Shown: piece after piece, positions 5,462 through 49,632 of the stretch | Position numbering within the stretch: the stretch's first letter is position 1 | How the letters are laid out: each line of letters begins with the position of its first letter | Origin: an uncultured delta proteobacterium | GTDB lineage: Bacteria; Desulfobacterota; Binatia; UBA9968 | DNA length: 64,000 nt | Direction: 5' to 3' | Assembly (NCBI GenBank): GCA_963727625.1 | Contig: CAVSHR010000002.1 | Location: 224,001 to 288,000 of the forward strand | Notes under the pieces: model-generated | Told to the model about the DNA's origin: nothing | Database searches by the model: none | What the model saw: the letters and a program-made list of their open reading frames with translations, nothing else | Translations under genes and position numbers: made by a program

Positions 5462-6074
5462 CCACTCTGGGAGGGTTGAAGCCCTCGCCTTTAGGCGACG
5501 GCTTTAGCAAGTTTTTGTGACACTGTGGTAGTGTGTGCGGATGAAGGAGTATCGACGCGGAGACACACGGTATTCGAGATACATTTGCATGTGGTATGGA
5601 CGACCAAATACCATCGGGCAGCGTTGACGGGGGAAGTGGCGACGCGAGTAAGAGACATAATCCGTGAGATCTGCGGGCAACACGAAGTAACGATCCTGAA
5701 GGGACATGGTAAAGGACCATCTGCATCTGTTCGTGTCGATACCGCCGCAAGTGACAATCAGTCGGTTGATCCAATGGTTGAAGGGGAAGAGTTCGTACAA
5801 GTTGATGGGAGAATTTCCGCATTTGCAGAAGCAGTTTTGGGGTCGGCATCTTGGGCACGGGGATACTTCTGCTGCAGTAGCGGGAATGTGACCGACGAGG
5901 TGATCGCGGAATATATATCGAATCAGAATCATGATCGTGACGATGATTTCAAAGTAGACGGTTAAGACCATCAGCCGCCCATTGGGGGCGGAACTTTAAG
6001 CCGGCTTGTAGCCGGAACCCAGGACTTTGAGTCCGTTATTCGATGCCACCGCCTTTAAGGCGGTGGTTATTCAC
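5462..6074 (+). mobile_element. IS200/IS605-family element carrying tnpA only
   Basis: Subterminal hairpins GCCCTCGCCT-TT-AGGCGACGGC (5481-5502) and CCACCGCCT-TTA-AGGCGGTGG (6046-6066); ends in TCAC at 6071-6074; left boundary approximate. Confidence 0.8.
5541..5965 (+). CDS. tnpA: IS200-type Y1 (HUH) transposase, frameshifted
   Basis: HLHVVWTTKY, DHLHLFV (HUH), LKGKSS, WARGYFCCSSG and catalytic Tyr in IAEYISNQ. Confidence 0.9.
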
Positions 6075-6278
6075 TTTGGTGATGGCTTCAGTAGCCGCTG
6101 AGTTTCGACCTTCAAAAATCGATAGATGTTTTCCCTTCACCGTGCCGTTGCTTGACTCGAGTTTCGAAAGAGGACATAGCAATGCTTATAGCCGCTTTAT
6201 TTTTCAGTCAACCACGTTGATATTATCTCTTCCTAAAGCTTTTGCCACTGCGGCGAAAGATTTTCGGATCAAATTTTT

Positions 6279-8250
6279 ATGCTACCGGTGTTAAAACGAA
6301 TGGCGCTAGGCTGTTCGCTGATCATGATCGCTTCCGCGGTGTTGTTGTTTTCCGACCTGAGTCAGCGCAAGGCCGCAGGCACAAAAATCCCTCGCGTGGC
6401 GAACTTCCAATGCGCTTCCGCAGCGGTACTGGACGACGGCGTTCAGGGAATCAGAGACGCACTGAATCAGGCGGGATACGTCAATGGCAAGAACATCGAG
6501 CTTCGGATGTTCAATGCCGAAAACGATATGCCCACGGCCAATGCCATCGCGAAGCAAATCACCGACGGAAGTTTTGATCTCGTGTTCACGGTGAGCACCG
6601 TCTGCCTGCAAGTCGTGGCGAACGCTAACAAGGCTGGCAAAACCGTGCATGTCTTCGGACTGGTGACCGATCCCTACGGCGCCGGAGTTGGGATCAAGCG
6701 AGACGATCCTCTCGACCACCCGGCGCATCTGGTTGGCTTGGGCTCCTTCCAGCCTGTCGCGGAGTCGCTCCGACTGGCGAAGACACTCTTTCCCGGCCTC
6801 ACCACCATCGGAGTGCCCTGGAACACCGCGGAGCATAGCTCCGAAGCCTGCGTCATCAAGGCGAGGGAGACCGCGCCCAAGCTCGGCATTAAGCTTTTGG
6901 AAGCAAGGTCGATATTCCGCAGGGGTCTGGAAGCATCCAGCTCGTTAGTTCCCGGGGGGCGCAAGCCCTCTGGGTCGGGCGCGACATGACCGTCAATGTC
7001 GCCGTGGATCCGCGGTGGCCGCCGCCAAGAAGGGCGGGTGCCGGTTTACCAACCAACCGCCCAACGCGCGGCGCGGCGCGCTTTTCGACCTCGGCGCCGA
7101 TTACCGCGAGGTGGGACGGCTCACGGGTGTTATAGGCGTAAAAATTCTTCAGGGAGCCGATCCAAGAAAAATTCCGGTGAAGAACGTCGTTCCCGAGAGC
7201 CTGTGGCTGAATACCGTGGCGCTGACAGGACTGAATGAACCCTGGCACATCCCAGAAACTGTGGCTGCTCATGCTCAAGTGCTGGTTGACGCAAAAGGCG
7301 TCCACAAAAGTTCTCTTGCTGCTATTCCCAAAGCGGTCGAAGGGCGGACCTATAAAATCGGTCTTGCCTATTTCGCGCCCGATCCGATTGGGGAAATGTG
7401 TCGAAAGGGTCTGTTTGACGGGCTCGAAAATTTAGGTTTTGTCCGAGACAAAAACCTCCAAGCCCGATTGGCCCATGCCCAGGGAGAGATAGCCAACATA
7501 CCGACCGTTTTGCAGACCTTGGACAATCTGGGGCTGGATCTGATCGTTTCCTTCACGACTCCGGTGCTCACTGCGGCCGCAAACATAGTGAAGCGAACCC
7601 CAGTCGTCTTCACGGAAGTCTATGATCCGATAGCGGCGGGTGCCGGGAAAACCCGTACGGAACACAACCCGAACATAACCGGCGTCGGTTCGTTTCCTCC
7701 AGTCGAAGAGACCATCGATATCATGCGGCAATTGCTGCCGGGGCTTAAATCCGTGGGCACACTTTATAATGCCTCAGAAGCCAATTCACGCAAAGTTGTC
7801 GGCGTGGCGCGAGAAATTTTCAAACAGCACGGCATCCCACTTGAAGAGGTGACCGTCGGCGCATCGAGCGAGGTTTATCAAGCAGCGCAAGCGCTATTGG
7901 GTCGAGACATCCAGGCGCTCTGGATTGCCGGAGATAACACCGCATCATTGGCGTTCGAGAGCATCGTCAAGGTTGCCGCCGACAGCCGCAAGCCGCTGAT
8001 CGTCAACGACCAGAAGTTCGATGAACGCGGAGTTCTGGCCAGCGTCGGGATCGGCTGGGAAGAGTCCTGCAAAAGAGCGGCGACGTACGTGGCCCGGGTT
8101 CTCGGCGGTGAAAAACCGGCAGCGATACCCTTTGAAAATTTTTCTCGCATGCACCTCGAGCTCAATCGCGCTCTGGCAAAGAAGCTCGGCATTGCCATTC
8201 CCGCCGACCTGAATAAAGAGGCGGATCAGGCTCGCGCCGCACGGGAGTAA
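6279..8250 (+). CDS. ABC substrate-binding protein with two tandem ABC_sub_bind domains, frameshifted near 6910-7015
   Basis: N-terminal hydrophobic anchor; two repeats of NA(E/Q)-D/E, (V)TDP/YDP.AG, G.LYN.SE.NS; no RBS or start evident between the two ORF pieces. Confidence 0.8.
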
Positions 8251-46843: not shown

Positions 46844-46946
46844 AAGGAGCAGACGGCAAGCGTAAGCTCACCCGAGGGTTTGGCGATCGCTCTGAAGCGA
46901 AAAGTTGGCTAGAAAAAATAGAGTAGGCATGAAGTGCTACACGAAT

Positions 46947-47651
46947 CTATTTTTCTTTGATTGCCGACTGATCTGGAGGAGCAACGCTAGGATGTTCGGC
47001 GGACCAAGAAAAATAATCGGCCCGGCTGCGGGCCTTAAACCGCTCGGCACTGAATCGATCCGCCCAACCAGATAGCGGTTTTAGATTCATCCCGTAGGCA
47101 GGATCGAACCGGGACCAGTTGCGGGCGTGCTCTTCCGACCGGAAGAGATTCATACCCGCTCATCGGTACGCCCGGCCTTCAGGCGGTCCGCCAAATCCGC
47201 TGTAGGCGTAGCCGACCATCATTTCAGGTTGAACCGACAAAACCGCGTCGTCCCGCATCTCTACCACGATCGGCTCTCCACAATCGAGACAGGGAGCGTC
47301 CACACGTACCATTTTTCCAGGAAATAGCCAGCGAACCGCCAGCGCTTCCAGCCCTCACTGAGCGAACCACTTCTGCTGACCGTTGATGGTGATGCGATAC
47401 TGAGTAGGCAGATTGTTAAACGGGGCAAAGGAAGCGATATAATCGGTGCCCGGAAAAAGCCAGCCTGGGTAGCTCCCACCAGCGTATGAGGGACAGGGTG
47501 CTTCCATCAACTCGTGAAGCAATTTTCGACCCTCCTCAACGGAGACGCCTAGGTCCTTTGCTAGCTCGGTATAATGGGGCGCCTGCCCCGTAGCAATGAA
47601 GCGTTGAATGATTAGGTGAAATACCCTGTCGAGAAGTTTTAAATCGGCCAT
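46947..47651 (-). CDS. MerB (organomercurial lyase)-like protein, predicted selenoprotein with two Sec (U99, U164), 234 aa
   Basis: In-frame TGA at 47357-47355 (KWFAQ-U-GLEAL) and 47162-47160 (RAYR-U-AGMNLFRSEEH); the frame stays open between and after them; N-terminal HTH-like region; APCLDCGEPI segment; hairpin after each UGA. Confidence 0.85.
47130..47147 (-). promoter_or_regulatory. candidate bacterial SECIS for the second UGA
   Basis: CUCUUCC-GGUC-GGAAGAG, perfect 7-bp stem starting after a 12-nt spacer from UGA. Confidence 0.75.
47327..47343 (-). promoter_or_regulatory. candidate bacterial SECIS for the first UGA
   Basis: GCUGGCG-GUU-CGCUGGC, 7-bp stem with two G-U pairs starting after an 11-nt spacer from UGA. 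Confidence 0.65.
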
Positions 47652-47737
47652 GGGTTGTGCCTCCTTAATTCAGTCAGTTACTTCACAGCACCTTTCTTAG
47701 GCTGCTTTCGCATGCCAACCCGCGCTGCCTGTTCGCT

Positions 47738-48784
47738 TCACACTAACGGGATCTCGCTATTTTCCAGCATGTCCGATGGCATGTGTGATACTTTGATAGC
47801 TTGCTCGATATCGGCGTGGTCCCAGAGCATGAGCCGCCCTCCGTCGTATACTTCGCCGTGGTCGATGGTAATTGACTGTTGGAAACAGGCCACGTCGATG
47901 GGCGCGTGGGAGCGACCCACGTGGAAATGGACGATCATTGGGCTGCAGTGGGAGTAGCTGTACCACTCTACCGGGTTGGTCGCGCGGGCATAGGGGACCA
48001 CGGTCATCGGATTCACACCCGCATGCCAGGAATCGATGTAGCCGTCGGTCTTGTTAAGCGCCGCCAGCATGCGTCCTTCGCCGTCTCCACCTTTGACCGA
48101 AACGACACGGCCGTCCTGCAACTCCAGGGTCAGCGGATTCGTCTCGTTCATAGAGCCGAAAGCGGCGATATGATCTGCAACAATGACGCCTTCTGTCGCC
48201 ACTGCAACCGCCGGACTGTGCACTCCACCCGGAAAGTTTCGCCGCGCACGGCCACCTTCCTCCTCTACGAAATAGGCTTGTGCCACCGTGCTTTCGCGGG
48301 GGCCGAACGTGCCGCGCACGTCGGTGCCGTTGGGACTCGTGATGCGCCATGATTTGCCTGGCGCCGATAGGGTATCGATGGTCGCCGCCATGGCTTTTTG
48401 CACGGAGTACGGAAACGCCGCCCATTTCGTTGCCATGAGTTGTACCGTGCGCGCGCGATTGGGCACCCGGGTGCGTTTTTCTCCGGGAAAATGCGGATGG
48501 AGCGCCTCGCGCTTCAGCGAGGGATAGTGGGAAAAAAGCACGTCGGCTTTAGCGTAGGCGTTCAGAACATTCGCCGGAATGTCATCGGGCCGGTCTTTGG
48601 GTATCTTCGGTCCCCAGATGACGTTGACCTGTGCGCCACAGTTCTTGGCTTTCTCGGCAAGCGCAGCGGCAACCGGCTTGTCTGCCGCGCCCTCTTCGCT
48701 CACCACGTAAACCCTTTGCCCGCGCTCTACCGCGCCACAATCCTCGACACAGTTCTTTATGCCGGCTTCGAGCTTGTCAGTCAT
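47738..48784 (-). CDS. peptidase M29/NicX-like fold protein, function unknown
   Basis: RITSPNGTDV, NFPGG, EGVIVAD, PLTLELQDGRVVSVKG, SWHAGVNP, VHFHVG, ITID..VYDGG. Confidence 0.6.
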   Translation of the reverse strand: MTDKLEAGIKNCVEDCGAVERGQRVYVVSEEGAADKPVAAALAEKAKNCGAQVNVIWGPKIPKDRPDDIPANVLNAYAKADVLFSHYPSLKREALHPHFPGEKRTRVPNRARTVQLMATKWAAFPYSVQKAMAATIDTLSAPGKSWRITSPNGTDVRGTFGPRESTVAQAYFVEEEGGRARRNFPGGVHSPAVAVATEGVIVADHIAAFGSMNETNPLTLELQDGRVVSVKGGDGEGRMLAALNKTDGYIDSWHAGVNPMTVVPYARATNPVEWYSYSHCSPMIVHFHVGRSHAPIDVACFQQSITIDHGEVYDGGRLMLWDHADIEQAIKVSHMPSDMLENSEIPLV

Positions 48785-48840: not shown

Positions 48841-49632
48841 CTACCCGACGCGTTCCCACTGGTTTATGCCGACTTCCCAGCCTTTACTTTGGGAGAGATC
48901 CAAACGGTTACCTTCAGGGTCGGTAATCCGATACTCCGCGTAAGGCCGGTCATCGGGCCGTTTGTTGACTTTCACGACGCTGCTCACATCCTCCATGGTC
49001 GCTTTCAAATCGCGCACGAGAAAGCCGATATGATTGATGCCGAACTTCATCTCATGTCCTTTCGAGCCAGAATTGTAGAAAGGATGGATGGCCAAGTTGA
49101 TGTGCTCGTCGCCGACGAAGCGGTTGAGCTTACCGGCCTTGCGATAGTCGAATCCGCTTGGCACTTCGACAAAACCAAAGACCTCGCTGTAAAACTCTCT
49201 CATCCCCTCCGGGTCCATGGCGTTGTAGGCGATATGGCGAATGCCCGGTATGCGATGCTCTTCGATCACGCCGAAGGACTTTTCTGAAATACTCACCGGA
49301 TTGCCATCGGGATCATGAATGCGAATGACTCCGTGATGCAAATCCCCGTCTTCCGGAATCACCGGCCCGCGCGGAAAAAGTTTCAAGTAGCGGTTCTTTG
49401 TCTGCTCGACGCTCTCGACTTGAATACCGATGTGATTGAGACCCGTCTCCATGCGCGGCTCGCAGAGCGCCGGGCGCTTCTTGAAAAAAGTCAGGTTCAA
49501 AAAGCCGTCGGTGATCGAGACATCACCCGCGGACGACCTTCCCAGTTCCTTGGTGCCCATATAGCGCCCATAAAACTTCGCCAGCTCCTCGGGGTGGTCG
49601 GAAATGAAAGCAAGGTATCGGATGGTCGCCAT
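48841..49632 (-). CDS. two-domain VOC/glyoxalase family protein
   Basis: IRYLA/IRHIA, GLNHIGI/GINHIGF, DPDGNPV/DPEGNRL repeats. Confidence 0.88.
   Translation of the reverse strand: MATIRYLAFISDHPEELAKFYGRYMGTKELGRSSAGDVSITDGFLNLTFFKKRPALCEPRMETGLNHIGIQVESVEQTKNRYLKLFPRGPVIPEDGDLHHGVIRIHDPDGNPVSISEKSFGVIEEHRIPGIRHIAYNAMDPEGMREFYSEVFGFVEVPSGFDYRKAGKLNRFVGDEHINLAIHPFYNSGSKGHEMKFGINHIGFLVRDLKATMEDVSSVVKVNKRPDDRPYAEYRITDPEGNRLDLSQSKGWEVGINQWERVG

What the first reader, a model, noticed from the sequence alone, without database searches (positions are those of the whole stretch)
46947..47651. MerB-like lyase with both catalytic cysteines recoded as selenocysteine
Seen: the 98-aa and 68-aa ORFs are in one frame, joined by 64 sense codons between two TGAs, giving a 234-aa protein: ...KWFAQ-U99-GLE102ALAVRWLFPGKMVRVDAPC121LDCGEPIVV...RAYR-U164-AGMNLFRSEEHARNW. 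Known: E. coli MerB reads YAW-C96-ALD99...SHC117AATGAPV...F-C159-CHVHFFAS, with C96, D99 and C159 catalytic. Both UGAs fall on the catalytic Cys positions, and Asp is replaced by Glu. TGA is a normal stop elsewhere in the window (truB, DUF503) and neighbouring genes are error-free. A Sec-containing MerB-like family (SaoL) has been reported in Clostridioides difficile, but I do not know of a form with Sec at both catalytic sites outside a mer or sao operon. Inference: a di-selenol organometal or metalloid lyase that standard annotation would miss.
Basis: partly seen in the sequence, partly recalled or inferred. Interest (0 to 1): 0.93.

Follow-up and report, generated by a model that had tools for sequence, protein, structure and literature searches.

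The report
Double-selenocysteine MerB-like lyase family
This gene encodes a mercury-lyase-like protein whose two metal-binding cysteines are both replaced by selenocysteine, and it belongs to a widespread bacterial family that databases cut short at the recoded stop codons.

Summary
Window 47651..46947 (- strand) is one 234-codon frame with in-frame TGA at codons 99 and 164. It has the MerB domain and fold. The two TGAs align with MerB Cys96 and Cys159, and Glu102 aligns with Asp99.

It is a real selenoprotein:
- Codon 164 is TGA in all 161 homologous loci that could be aligned there. Codon 99 is TGA in 133 and Cys in 27 of 160. No locus has TGG.
- A hairpin follows each TGA. Its synonymous sites are frozen, and the first hairpin decays in the Cys forms.
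- The genome has tRNA-Sec, selA, selB and a Sec-containing selD.

The family occurs in Desulfobacterota, Dehalococcoidia/SAR202, Acidimicrobiia, Binatia and Acidobacteriota. Public records hold only truncated pieces, named 'organomercurial lyase' or 'hypothetical protein'.

It is neither canonical MerB nor SaoL: it scores below both NCBIfam cut-offs, has no CU motif, and has no mer or SAO context. A 2026 catalogue of 119 selenoprotein families lists only SaoL as MerB-like.

The function is inferred, not shown: carbon-metal(loid) bond cleavage on a di-selenolate site.

The parts
46947..47651 (-). Complete coding sequence of the MerB-like double selenoprotein: 234 codons plus a TAG stop at 46947-46949.
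   Evidence: Translation with TGA=U. Pfam MerB, E 2.4e-17, residues 80-187, spanning both TGAs. AlphaFold pLDDT 92.1. Foldseek finds only MerB chains with significant scores.
47660..47666 (-). Shine-Dalgarno sequence AAGGAGG, 8 nt upstream of the ATG.
   Evidence: Read directly from the sequence.
47502..47651 (-). N-terminal three-helix (winged-helix-like) domain, residues 1-50, as in MerB.
   Evidence: Helices 4-21, 27-34 and 38-50 in the model. Foldseek aligns 203-232 columns to MerB chains. The profile alignment to MerB2 starts at profile position 19.
47355..47357 (-). UGA codon 99, read as selenocysteine; aligns with MerB Cys96.
   Evidence: This column is TGA in 133 and TGC/TGT in 27 of 160 aligned loci.
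47346..47348 (-). Glu102 codon; aligns with the MerB proton donor Asp99.
   Evidence: Glu in 82 of 82 rows and in 78 of 80 metagenome loci, the other 2 unaligned.
47327..47343 (-). SECIS-like hairpin 1: GCUGGC-GGUUC-GCUGGC, starting 11 nt after UGA99.
   Evidence: All 6 pairs form in 129 of 133 Sec forms but in 16 of 27 Cys forms. Loop positions 2-3 are GU in 132 of 133 Sec forms against 8 of 27 Cys forms. Codon 107 is NGC (Cys, Arg, Ser or Gly) in 130 of 133 Sec forms. The single-sequence fold is not unusually stable, z +0.62.
47280..47291 (-). Cys121-Leu-Asp-Cys124 (CxxC). Cys121 aligns with MerB Cys117.
   Evidence: Cys121 in 82 of 82 rows; Cys124 in 71 of 82, Gly in 11.
47160..47162 (-). 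UGA codon 164, read as selenocysteine; aligns with MerB Cys159.
   Evidence: TGA in 82 of 82 rows and in 79 of 80 metagenome loci, the other 1 unaligned.
47121..47159 (-). SECIS-like hairpin 2. The apical part CUCUUCC-GGUC-GGAAGAG lies at 47147-47130 and starts 12 nt after UGA164. In this gene a lower stem (GCGGGU/GCCCGC) extends it.
   Evidence: All 7 pairs form in 145 of 160 loci and 6 pairs in the other 15. The loop is GGUC in 147 of 160. The closing pair changes from C-G to U-A in 10 loci. The six codons are almost fixed: CTC .98, TTC .99, CGG .94, TCG 1.0, GAA .97, GAG .89, against 0.3-0.7 for most conserved residues outside the two hairpins. MFE -25.1 kcal/mol, z -2.51.

Best explanation
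What is shown. The gene encodes a genuine selenoprotein with the MerB (organomercurial lyase) fold. The ribosome reads UGA99 and UGA164 as selenocysteine. Each UGA is followed within 11-12 nt by a coding-region hairpin with a G-U-containing loop, the kind of structure that SelB uses in bacteria. The two Sec residues take the places of MerB's two mercury-binding cysteines (Cys96 and Cys159). An invariant Glu102 takes the place of the proton donor Asp99.

What is inferred. The two selenolates, which are deprotonated at neutral pH, clamp the soft metal or metalloid atom of an organometal(loid) compound. Methyl- or aryl-mercury is the first candidate; organotin, organolead and organoarsenic compounds are alternatives. 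Glu102 then protonates the carbon leaving group, so the carbon-metal bond is cleaved as in MerB. The metal stays on the di-selenolate until thiols, the nearby Cys121-x-x-Cys124 pair or an unknown partner remove it.

The enzyme acts alone. It has no MerA, no mer operon and no SAO locus. It belongs to a distinct family spread over several phyla.
For: Frame and recoding:
- One frame with two TGAs. The Pfam MerB match spans both.
- Column 164 is TGA in 82 of 82 and 79 of 80 aligned loci. Column 99 is TGA in 133 and Cys in 27. No TGG anywhere.
- Among the best 120 database proteins, 64 have Cys99 and stop at residue 163, 47 read W/W, and 4 are Cys/Cys.
- A quick tree needs at least 5 Sec/Cys changes at column 99.

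SECIS:
- Synonymous sites are frozen in hairpin 2 and partly in hairpin 1.
- Hairpin 1 is intact in 129 of 133 Sec forms against 16 of 27 Cys forms, and its GU loop is kept in 132 of 133 against 8 of 27.
- Hairpin 2 has a compensatory C-G to U-A change in 10 loci.
- The hairpin after the genome's own selD UGA has GUC in its loop, like both hairpins here.

Machinery:
- G000 has tRNA-Sec, selA, selB and a selD with its own in-frame TGA.
- SelA and SelB are present in 5 of 5 chromosome-level carriers from three phyla.

Fold and active site:
- AlphaFold pLDDT 92.1, pTM 0.88.
- The 11 best Foldseek PDB hits are all MerB (E 3e-10 to 3e-6, TM 0.46-0.65). The next hits have E of 1 or more.
- The family profile matches MerB2 at 6.7e-11.
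- Residue-by-residue alignment of U99, E102, C121 and U164 with C96, D99, C117 and C159.
- Glu102 is invariant.

Chemistry: a passage in PMC11639659 states that selone mimics of organomercurial lyase cleave Hg-C bonds faster than their sulfur analogues.
Against: - No activity, substrate or metal was tested.
- The protein scores far below the NCBIfam equivalog cut-offs for MerB (42.3 against 193; 33.2 against 200) and SaoL (38.6 against 140). It is only 15-18% identical to MerB structures.
- The proton donor is Glu, not Asp.
- G000 has no MerA above the cut-off and no HgcA. No metal-handling neighbour stands out: the best neighbour cluster occurs in 10 of 82 loci, and the commonest Pfam family in 8 of 138 flanking ORFs.
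- From general chemistry, mercury bound by two selenolates should be very hard to release. That argues against fast turnover with mercury.
- Hairpin 1 on its own folds no better than shuffled sequence (z +0.62). Its support is comparative only.
- I could not obtain model coordinates, so the Se-Se and Se-carboxylate distances were not measured.
Confidence: 0.6

Rival explanations
1. It is a genuine double selenoprotein, but a redox enzyme rather than a carbon-metal lyase. Sec99 and Sec164 cycle between a diselenide and two selenols, possibly with the Cys121-x-x-Cys124 pair, to reduce or cleave a non-metal substrate.
For: The 2026 review says most prokaryotic selenoproteins are thought to be redox proteins. 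A CxxC motif is kept in 71 of 82 rows. There is no mer or ars context. Flavin and pyridine-nucleotide oxidoreductases and nitroreductases are the commonest flanking families, but only in 6-8 of 138 ORFs.
Against: The fold and all three catalytic columns are those of MerB. No redox role is known for MerB (from my own knowledge, not checked in a call). The invariant carboxylate at column 102 fits proton delivery. The oxidoreductase neighbours are too rare to indicate a partner.
Confidence: 0.17
2. It is a genuine double selenoprotein that only binds a soft metal or metalloid very tightly, acting as a scavenger, chaperone or sensor without turnover. The N-terminal winged-helix-like domain could even make it a regulator.
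For: From general chemistry, a di-selenolate site should hold Hg(II) or similar ions almost irreversibly. There is no MerA or other acceptor nearby. Weak Foldseek similarity of about 45-50 N-terminal residues to winged-helix regulators (E about 1-3).
Against: MerB has the same N-terminal domain and is an enzyme. The invariant Glu at the proton-donor position (82 of 82 rows) would be unnecessary for binding alone. The winged-helix matches are not significant.
Confidence: 0.15
3. It is not a selenoprotein. The TGAs are sequencing errors or pseudogene lesions, or they are true stops that separate small ORFs.
For: Under table 11 the frame breaks into ORFs of 98, 50 and 68 aa. Public annotation treats family members as truncated proteins.
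Against: Both TGAs sit at the same columns in about 160 loci from several phyla. The protein is conserved, and a confident fold runs, across and after both TGAs. Cys alternates with TGA at these columns. SECIS constraints and the Sec machinery are present.
Confidence: 0.03
4. UGA is read as another amino acid, Trp or Gly as in genetic codes 4 or 25, rather than Sec.
For: Among the best 120 database proteins, 47 read W at both columns.
Against: The DNA of 160 loci shows TGA and never TGG, so the W is the choice of the gene caller. TGA ends 716 of 1783 long frames in this genome. The alternative residue at these columns is Cys. tRNA-Sec, SelA and SelB are present.
Confidence: 0.02

Closest known systems
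MerB, organomercurial (alkylmercury) lyase of mer operons (PDB 1s6l, 3f0o, 3f0p; MerB2 5c17)
   Same: Same Pfam domain (PF03243, 63.6 bits) and the same overall fold, including the N-terminal helical domain. The three catalytic columns and the structural Cys117 column align.
   Different: Sec replaces both metal-binding Cys residues, and Glu replaces Asp. It is 15-18% identical to the structures and far below the NCBIfam MerB cut-offs. It has about 40 extra C-terminal residues, mostly helical, and a CxxC where MerB has the single Cys117. G000 has no MerA, and no mer-type neighbours were found around the gene or its relatives.
SaoL, the MerB-like selenoprotein of the SAO locus of Clostridioides difficile and other anaerobes (NF040728; Haft and Gwadz, bioRxiv 10.1101/2022.07.06.499078)
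   Same: A MerB-fold protein in which Sec replaces the second metal-binding Cys. Databases truncate it at that UGA. It is not tied to a mer operon (passages read).
   Different: SaoL has one Sec in a Cys-Sec dipeptide (C161-U162). It keeps Cys99 and Asp102 and marks a nine-gene SAO neighbourhood. Here there are two Sec residues, no neighbouring Cys (R163-U164-A165), Glu102 and no conserved neighbourhood. The score is 38.6 bits against the SaoL cut-off of 140.
Uncharacterised Cys-type MerB-like proteins (for example P0121, P0124, P0127, P0174, P0199, P0230)
   Same: These are the nearest full-length relatives in the representative library. All 15 that span both columns have Cys at column 164, 14 have Cys at column 99, and 9 have Glu at column 102.
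   Different: They have no Sec. The 10 that I scanned are also below the MerB and SaoL cut-offs, and their function is equally unknown.

Membership tests
MerB (organomercurial lyase) | Pfam MerB domain (PF03243) above the gathering score | tested here: met
   63.6 bits against a cut-off of 27, E 2.4e-17, residues 80-187.
MerB (organomercurial lyase) | NCBIfam equivalog or exception models for MerB above their cut-offs | tested here: not met
   NF009710: 42.3 against 193. NF033555: 33.2 against 200.
MerB (organomercurial lyase) | MerB three-dimensional fold | tested here: met
   Model pLDDT 92.1. The top 11 Foldseek PDB hits are all MerB, E down to 3.1e-10, TM 0.46-0.65.
MerB (organomercurial lyase) | Catalytic residues Cys96, Asp99 and Cys159 | tested here: not met
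   The columns align, but the residues are Sec, Glu and Sec. The chemistry is analogous, not identical.
MerB (organomercurial lyase) | mer operon context (MerA, MerR, transport genes) | tested here: not met
   No MerA above the cut-off in G000: best 380.7 bits against 454.45. No recurrent neighbour in 82 loci or 138 flanking ORFs.
MerB (organomercurial lyase) | Protonolysis of Hg-C bonds | not testable with these tools
   This needs an enzyme assay.
SaoL (NF040728) | NCBIfam SaoL model above its cut-off | tested here: not met
   38.6 bits against 140.
SaoL (NF040728) | Cys-Sec (CU) dipeptide at the second metal ligand, with Cys and Asp at the first site | tested here: not met
   The sequence reads R163-U164-A165, U99 and E102. 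The SaoL features are as described.
SaoL (NF040728) | Nine-gene SAO neighbourhood | tested here: inconclusive
   No conserved neighbourhood. SaoB (NF040727) was not found in G000, but that search also rang in none of the 14 control genomes. The other Sao families were not searched.
Bacterial selenoproteins (SelB/SECIS-dependent UGA recoding) | In-frame UGA conserved among orthologues and alternating with Cys | tested here: met
   Column 99: 133 TGA and 27 Cys. Column 164: TGA in all 161 loci aligned at that column. Four Cys/Cys proteins among the best 120 database hits.
Bacterial selenoproteins (SelB/SECIS-dependent UGA recoding) | Stem-loop just downstream of the UGA with a G/U-containing apical loop | tested here: met
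   Hairpins start 11 and 12 nt after the UGAs. Synonymous sites are frozen, there is a compensatory change, and hairpin 1 decays in Cys forms. Only hairpin 2 is unusually stable on its own. The spacing and loop rule is recalled from the bacterial SECIS literature, not taken from a call.
Bacterial selenoproteins (SelB/SECIS-dependent UGA recoding) | tRNA-Sec, SelA, SelB and SelD in the genome | tested here: met
   SelA and SelB also in 5 of 5 other carriers.
Bacterial selenoproteins (SelB/SECIS-dependent UGA recoding) | Selenium found in the protein | not testable with these tools
   This needs 75Se labelling or mass spectrometry.

The most novel reading that the evidence does not exclude
This family is a selenium-dependent, MerA-independent demethylase of methylmercury or other organometal(loid)s. 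It has gone unnoticed because gene callers stop at the UGAs. It sits in about a tenth of the sampled Desulfobacterota species and in marine SAR202 and sponge-associated Acidimicrobiia. It could therefore account for part of the mer-independent methylmercury degradation seen in anoxic sediments and the ocean. It would also be the first enzyme known to use two selenolates as a catalytic metal clamp.
Probability: 0.25. Interest if true: 0.92.

Novelty: new variant of a known kind. Interest (0 to 1): 0.8.

Why it matters
Few selenoproteins carry more than one Sec. In the 2026 catalogue of 119 prokaryotic families and subfamilies, most have one and a small subset has 2-3. The only MerB-like entry there is SaoL, with one Sec.

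Here both metal-binding residues of an enzyme active site are Sec, and this is kept across phyla. That gives a natural test of what selenium adds to carbon-metal bond cleavage.

The family is common:
- 218 relatives confirmed among the 251 pattern-matched stretches of a scan of one genome per species, 185,579 species in all.
- 38 of 401 sampled genomes of the window's own phylum carry a form with two TGAs.
- More than 570 metagenome stretches encode a relative.

Public records nevertheless hold only fragments of about 90 or 155 residues, or mistranslated W/W forms. Surveys of merB, and of mercury, tin or arsenic detoxification potential, would therefore miscount it.

If the substrate is methylmercury, the family bears directly on where methylmercury is degraded in sediments and the sea.

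Tried and rejected
Gene context led nowhere:
- I clustered all ORFs within 5 kb of the gene in 82 loci. The best cluster occurs in 10 loci, mostly through synteny within one Acidimicrobiia clade, and none of the 15 largest clusters shown includes the window.
- The window's own neighbours were found in none of the 161 other loci. These are a 348-aa protein without any Pfam or NCBIfam hit, a VOC/glyoxalase protein, DUF123 and DnaB.
- A Pfam tally of 138 flanking ORFs gave at most 8 members for any family. My script listed 141 flanking ORFs; I left out three very long reverse-strand frames (L056, L075, L077) as probably spurious.

I considered that the VOC neighbour might be an ArsI-like C-As lyase. 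The ArsI/CadI model scores 20.7 bits against a cut-off of 116, so I rejected this.

The roughly 150-residue C-terminal extension in the Acidimicrobiia forms has no Pfam domain.

Rfam holds nothing for the region (3 chance-level hits).

Sequencing runs gave nothing usable. No RNA holder is listed. The two DNA holders cover small shares (0.28 and 0.07). The contigs laid cover only parts of the gene, and several seem to come from relatives. There is no evidence either way on expression or on the TGAs in reads.

Literature:
- I read passages of the GOS paper (PMC2398784). 'MerB', 'alkylmercury' and 'lyase' do not occur in the main text.
- The main text of Peng 2016 (PMC5029168) has no occurrence of these terms either.
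- The main text of deep-Sep (PMC12013277) has no occurrence of 'MerB', 'mercur' or 'lyase'.
- The 2022 review (PMC9312934) cites the GOS paper and Peng 2016 for a 'MerB-like' selenoprotein.
- Haft and Tolstoy 2025 (PMC12013261) is not held. I know its families only from Table 1 of the 2026 review.
- Searches for 'double selenoprotein', 'organomercurial lyase' + 'selenoprotein', 'merB' + 'selenocysteine' + 'demethylation' + 'UGA' (at least 3 of the 4 terms), and 'SAR202' + 'selenocysteine' found no description of this family.

The tree is the quick version. The careful search did not finish in the time allowed.

My first regex-based extraction of family genes caught only 40 of 81 loci. I replaced it with a BLAST-based one.
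Full report
**Observation.** On the minus strand, window 47651..46947 is a single reading frame of 234 sense codons. It has TGA at codons 99 (47357-47355) and 164 (47162-47160) and ends in TAG. A strong ribosome-binding site, AAGGAGG, lies 8 nt before the ATG. TGA is otherwise a normal stop here: it ends 716 of 1783 stop-to-stop frames of at least 400 codons in the genome.

**What the protein is.** With TGA read as Cys for the search programs, the protein matches Pfam MerB (E 2.4e-17, 63.6 bits, residues 80-187), so the match runs across both TGAs. NCBIfam finds only MerB and SaoL, and all hits are far below the curated cut-offs: 42.3 against 193, 33.2 against 200, and 38.6 against 140. phmmer against PDB chains aligns codon 99 with MerB Cys96, Glu102 with Asp99, Cys121 with Cys117 and codon 164 with Cys159. 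A profile of 42 family members matches MerB2 (5c17) at 6.7e-11. An AlphaFold2 model built on that alignment is confident (pLDDT 92.1, pTM 0.88). In Foldseek against the PDB, the eleven best hits are all MerB chains (E 3.1e-10 to 2.7e-6, TM 0.46-0.65), and every other hit has E of 1 or more. The genome holds no second MerB-like gene.

**The two UGAs are conserved and alternate with Cys.** A same-genus genome (G013) has a homologue of only 50% identity with TGA at the same two columns. A scan of one genome per species, 185,579 species in all, found 218 relatives, of which 80 were kept. By record title these are 42 Desulfobacterota or 'delta', 20 Chloroflexota (Dehalococcoidia, SAR202), 14 Actinomycetota (Acidimicrobiia, Poriferisodalis), 3 Binatia and 1 Acidobacteriota.

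In the 82 rows (window, G013 and the 80), column 164 is TGA in 82. Column 99 is TGA in 66 and Cys in 16. Glu102 and Cys121 are invariant. Cys124 is Cys in 71 and Gly in 11.

An independent scan of metagenome contigs found 572 relatives among 600 stretches, of which 80 were kept. These gave 67 TGA/TGA and 11 TGC/TGA. One locus has TGA at column 164 but could not be aligned at column 99, and one could not be aligned at either column. No locus has TGG.

Predicted proteins in the large public collection show the same picture from the other side. Of the best 120 hits, 64 have Cys99 and end exactly at residue 163. Another 47 are full length but read W at both columns; since the DNA never shows TGG, these are TGAs translated under another code by the gene caller. 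Four are real Cys/Cys forms, and five are other fragments. Three of the four Cys/Cys forms have lost the otherwise fixed MNLFRSEEH peptide that encodes hairpin 2.

In the 50%-identity representative library, 42 of 149 listed proteins end at residue 97-98 and 12 end at 161-163. On a quick maximum-likelihood tree, the Cys99 state needs at least 5 changes. Sec and Cys have therefore been exchanged repeatedly at this column.

**SECIS evidence.** Eleven nt after UGA99 lies GCUGGC-NGUNN-GCUGGC. Twelve nt after UGA164 lies CUCUUCC-GGUC-GGAAGAG.

Hairpin 2 forms all 7 pairs in 145 of 160 loci and 6 pairs in the other 15. Its loop is GGUC in 147. The closing pair changes from C-G to U-A in 10 loci. Its six codons are nearly fixed although Leu, Arg and Ser each have six codons: CTC .98, TTC .99, CGG .94, TCG 1.0, GAA .97 and GAG .89. 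Most equally conserved residues outside the two hairpins use their commonest codon only 30-70% of the time.

Hairpin 1 is complete in 129 of 133 Sec forms but in only 16 of 27 Cys forms. Its loop has GU at positions 2-3 in 132 of 133 Sec forms against 8 of 27 Cys forms. Codon 107 varies in amino acid (Cys, Arg, Ser, Gly) but is NGC in 130 of 133 Sec forms, whereas its third base is free in the Cys forms.

This is the pattern expected if the structures are needed only while the UGA is present. In the window's own sequence, hairpin 2 is unusually stable (-25.1 kcal/mol, z -2.51) and hairpin 1 is not (z +0.62). The hairpin after the UGA of the genome's selD also has GUC in its loop.

**Machinery.** The genome (98% complete) has tRNA-Sec. 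It also has a selA-selB-selD cluster in which selD itself carries an in-frame TGA. Five chromosome-level carriers from Dehalococcoidia, Acidimicrobiia and Desulfobacterales all have SelA and SelB.

**Distribution.** In an even sample of the window's phylum, 44 of 401 genomes have a match at E of 1e-20 or better. Of the 52 matches, 43 carry two TGAs, in 38 genomes, and five genomes have two copies. In a sample of the class Dehalococcoidia, 23 of 301 genomes match: 11 matches have two TGAs, 7 have one and 7 have none.

On the quick tree the window's protein sits with sequences labelled Binatia and Syntrophobacteraceae inside a Chloroflexota-dominated clade. The copy of its congener G013 lies in the other, 'delta' clade. 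This points to horizontal transfer or old paralogy.

**Context and function.** I found no conserved neighbourhood, no mer genes and no HgcA. I looked for only one SAO gene, SaoB, and did not find it; that search is weak because the same family also rang in none of the control genomes. The function therefore rests on homology alone.

The best-supported model is MerB-like chemistry on a di-selenolate site. Two Sec residues bind the metal(loid) of an organometal compound, and Glu102 delivers the proton that releases the hydrocarbon. Model selones are reported to cleave Hg-C bonds faster than their sulfur analogues (passage in PMC11639659). Against fast turnover with mercury is the expected tightness of Hg-Se binding (general chemistry, not tested here). 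Organotin, organolead or organoarsenic substrates, a stoichiometric scavenger role, or diselenide redox chemistry therefore remain open.

**Comparison with what is known.** SaoL is the one MerB-like selenoprotein described by Haft and Gwadz; I read passages and section 34 of the bioRxiv version. It has a Cys-Sec dipeptide with a single Sec, keeps Cys99 and Asp102, and marks a nine-gene SAO locus. The present family differs in each of these features.

Table 1 of the 2026 review of prokaryotic selenoproteins lists 119 families and subfamilies (PMC13188914; I read parts 1 and 2 of 3 of section 7). SaoL is its only MerB-like entry. NCBIfam release 20.0 has no model that claims this protein. Public names for members are 'organomercurial lyase' (truncated, 154-155 aa) or 'hypothetical protein'.

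The nearest full-length relatives are uncharacterised Cys-type MerB-like proteins, 9 of 15 with Glu at column 102. The 10 that I scanned are also below the MerB and SaoL cut-offs.

I could not read the supplements of the GOS and Peng 2016 papers, nor Haft and Tolstoy 2025. An earlier sighting of the family cannot be excluded.

**Verdict.** The finding is real. That it is a selenoprotein is close to certain on comparative grounds (about 0.93). That it is a carbon-metal(loid) lyase is the most likely function but is unproven (about 0.5). The overall confidence of 0.6 is for the combined statement, taking the lyase model in its broad form (a catalytic di-selenolate metal(loid) site).

Noticed in passing
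G000 contig C5:715340-719466 and C5:768830-768924 (outside the window): selA, selB and selD lie in one cluster, and selD itself has an in-frame TGA (Sec). tRNA-Sec lies about 50 kb away. The hairpin after the selD UGA has GUC in its loop, like the two hairpins in the MerB-like gene.
   Followed up: partly
L053, L056, L063, L064, L069, L071, L072, L075, L077 (all 5965-7107); similar in L054 and L059: In the Acidimicrobiia/Poriferisodalis clade the protein is 381 aa long. It has Cys at column 99, Gly in place of Cys124, and a C-terminal extension of about 150 residues that matches no Pfam family.
   Followed up: partly
Proteins P0002, P0005, P0006, P0008, P0016 and others: Many metagenome gene calls of this family read W at both Sec columns, although the DNA of 160 loci never shows TGG. 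Gene callers appear to have chosen a TGA=Trp code for short contigs, producing mistranslated full-length records.
   Followed up: yes
window 47738-48784 (- strand): The 348-aa ORF directly upstream of the MerB-like gene, on the same strand with an 86-bp gap, has no Pfam or NCBIfam match. It is absent from the other 161 family loci.
   Followed up: partly
Tree; L005 (G013) against the window: The window's protein groups with Binatia and Dehalococcoidia sequences (65-85% identity). The copy in a same-genus genome is only about 50% identical and falls in the other main clade, which suggests horizontal transfer or ancient paralogues. Several genomes carry two copies (G372, G433, G429, G214 and G342; G598 and G635).
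   Followed up: partly
G370:C14:4059-4754 and L150: Two family members seem damaged. One has a TAA in place of one of the TGAs. One metagenome copy could not be aligned past an in-frame stop. These may be pseudogenes or assembly errors.
   Followed up: no
window 46894-46929 (+ strand): A weak sub-threshold Rfam hit to the DUF805b RNA (17.7 bits against a gathering score of 35.6, E 0.041), just downstream of the gene's stop codon. Probably chance.
   Followed up: no
window 48841-49632 (- strand): A two-domain VOC/glyoxalase-family protein lies two genes upstream on the same strand. Its match to the ArsI/CadI heavy-metal model is far below the cut-off (20.7 against 116 bits), so no link to organoarsenic cleavage is supported.
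   Followed up: yes
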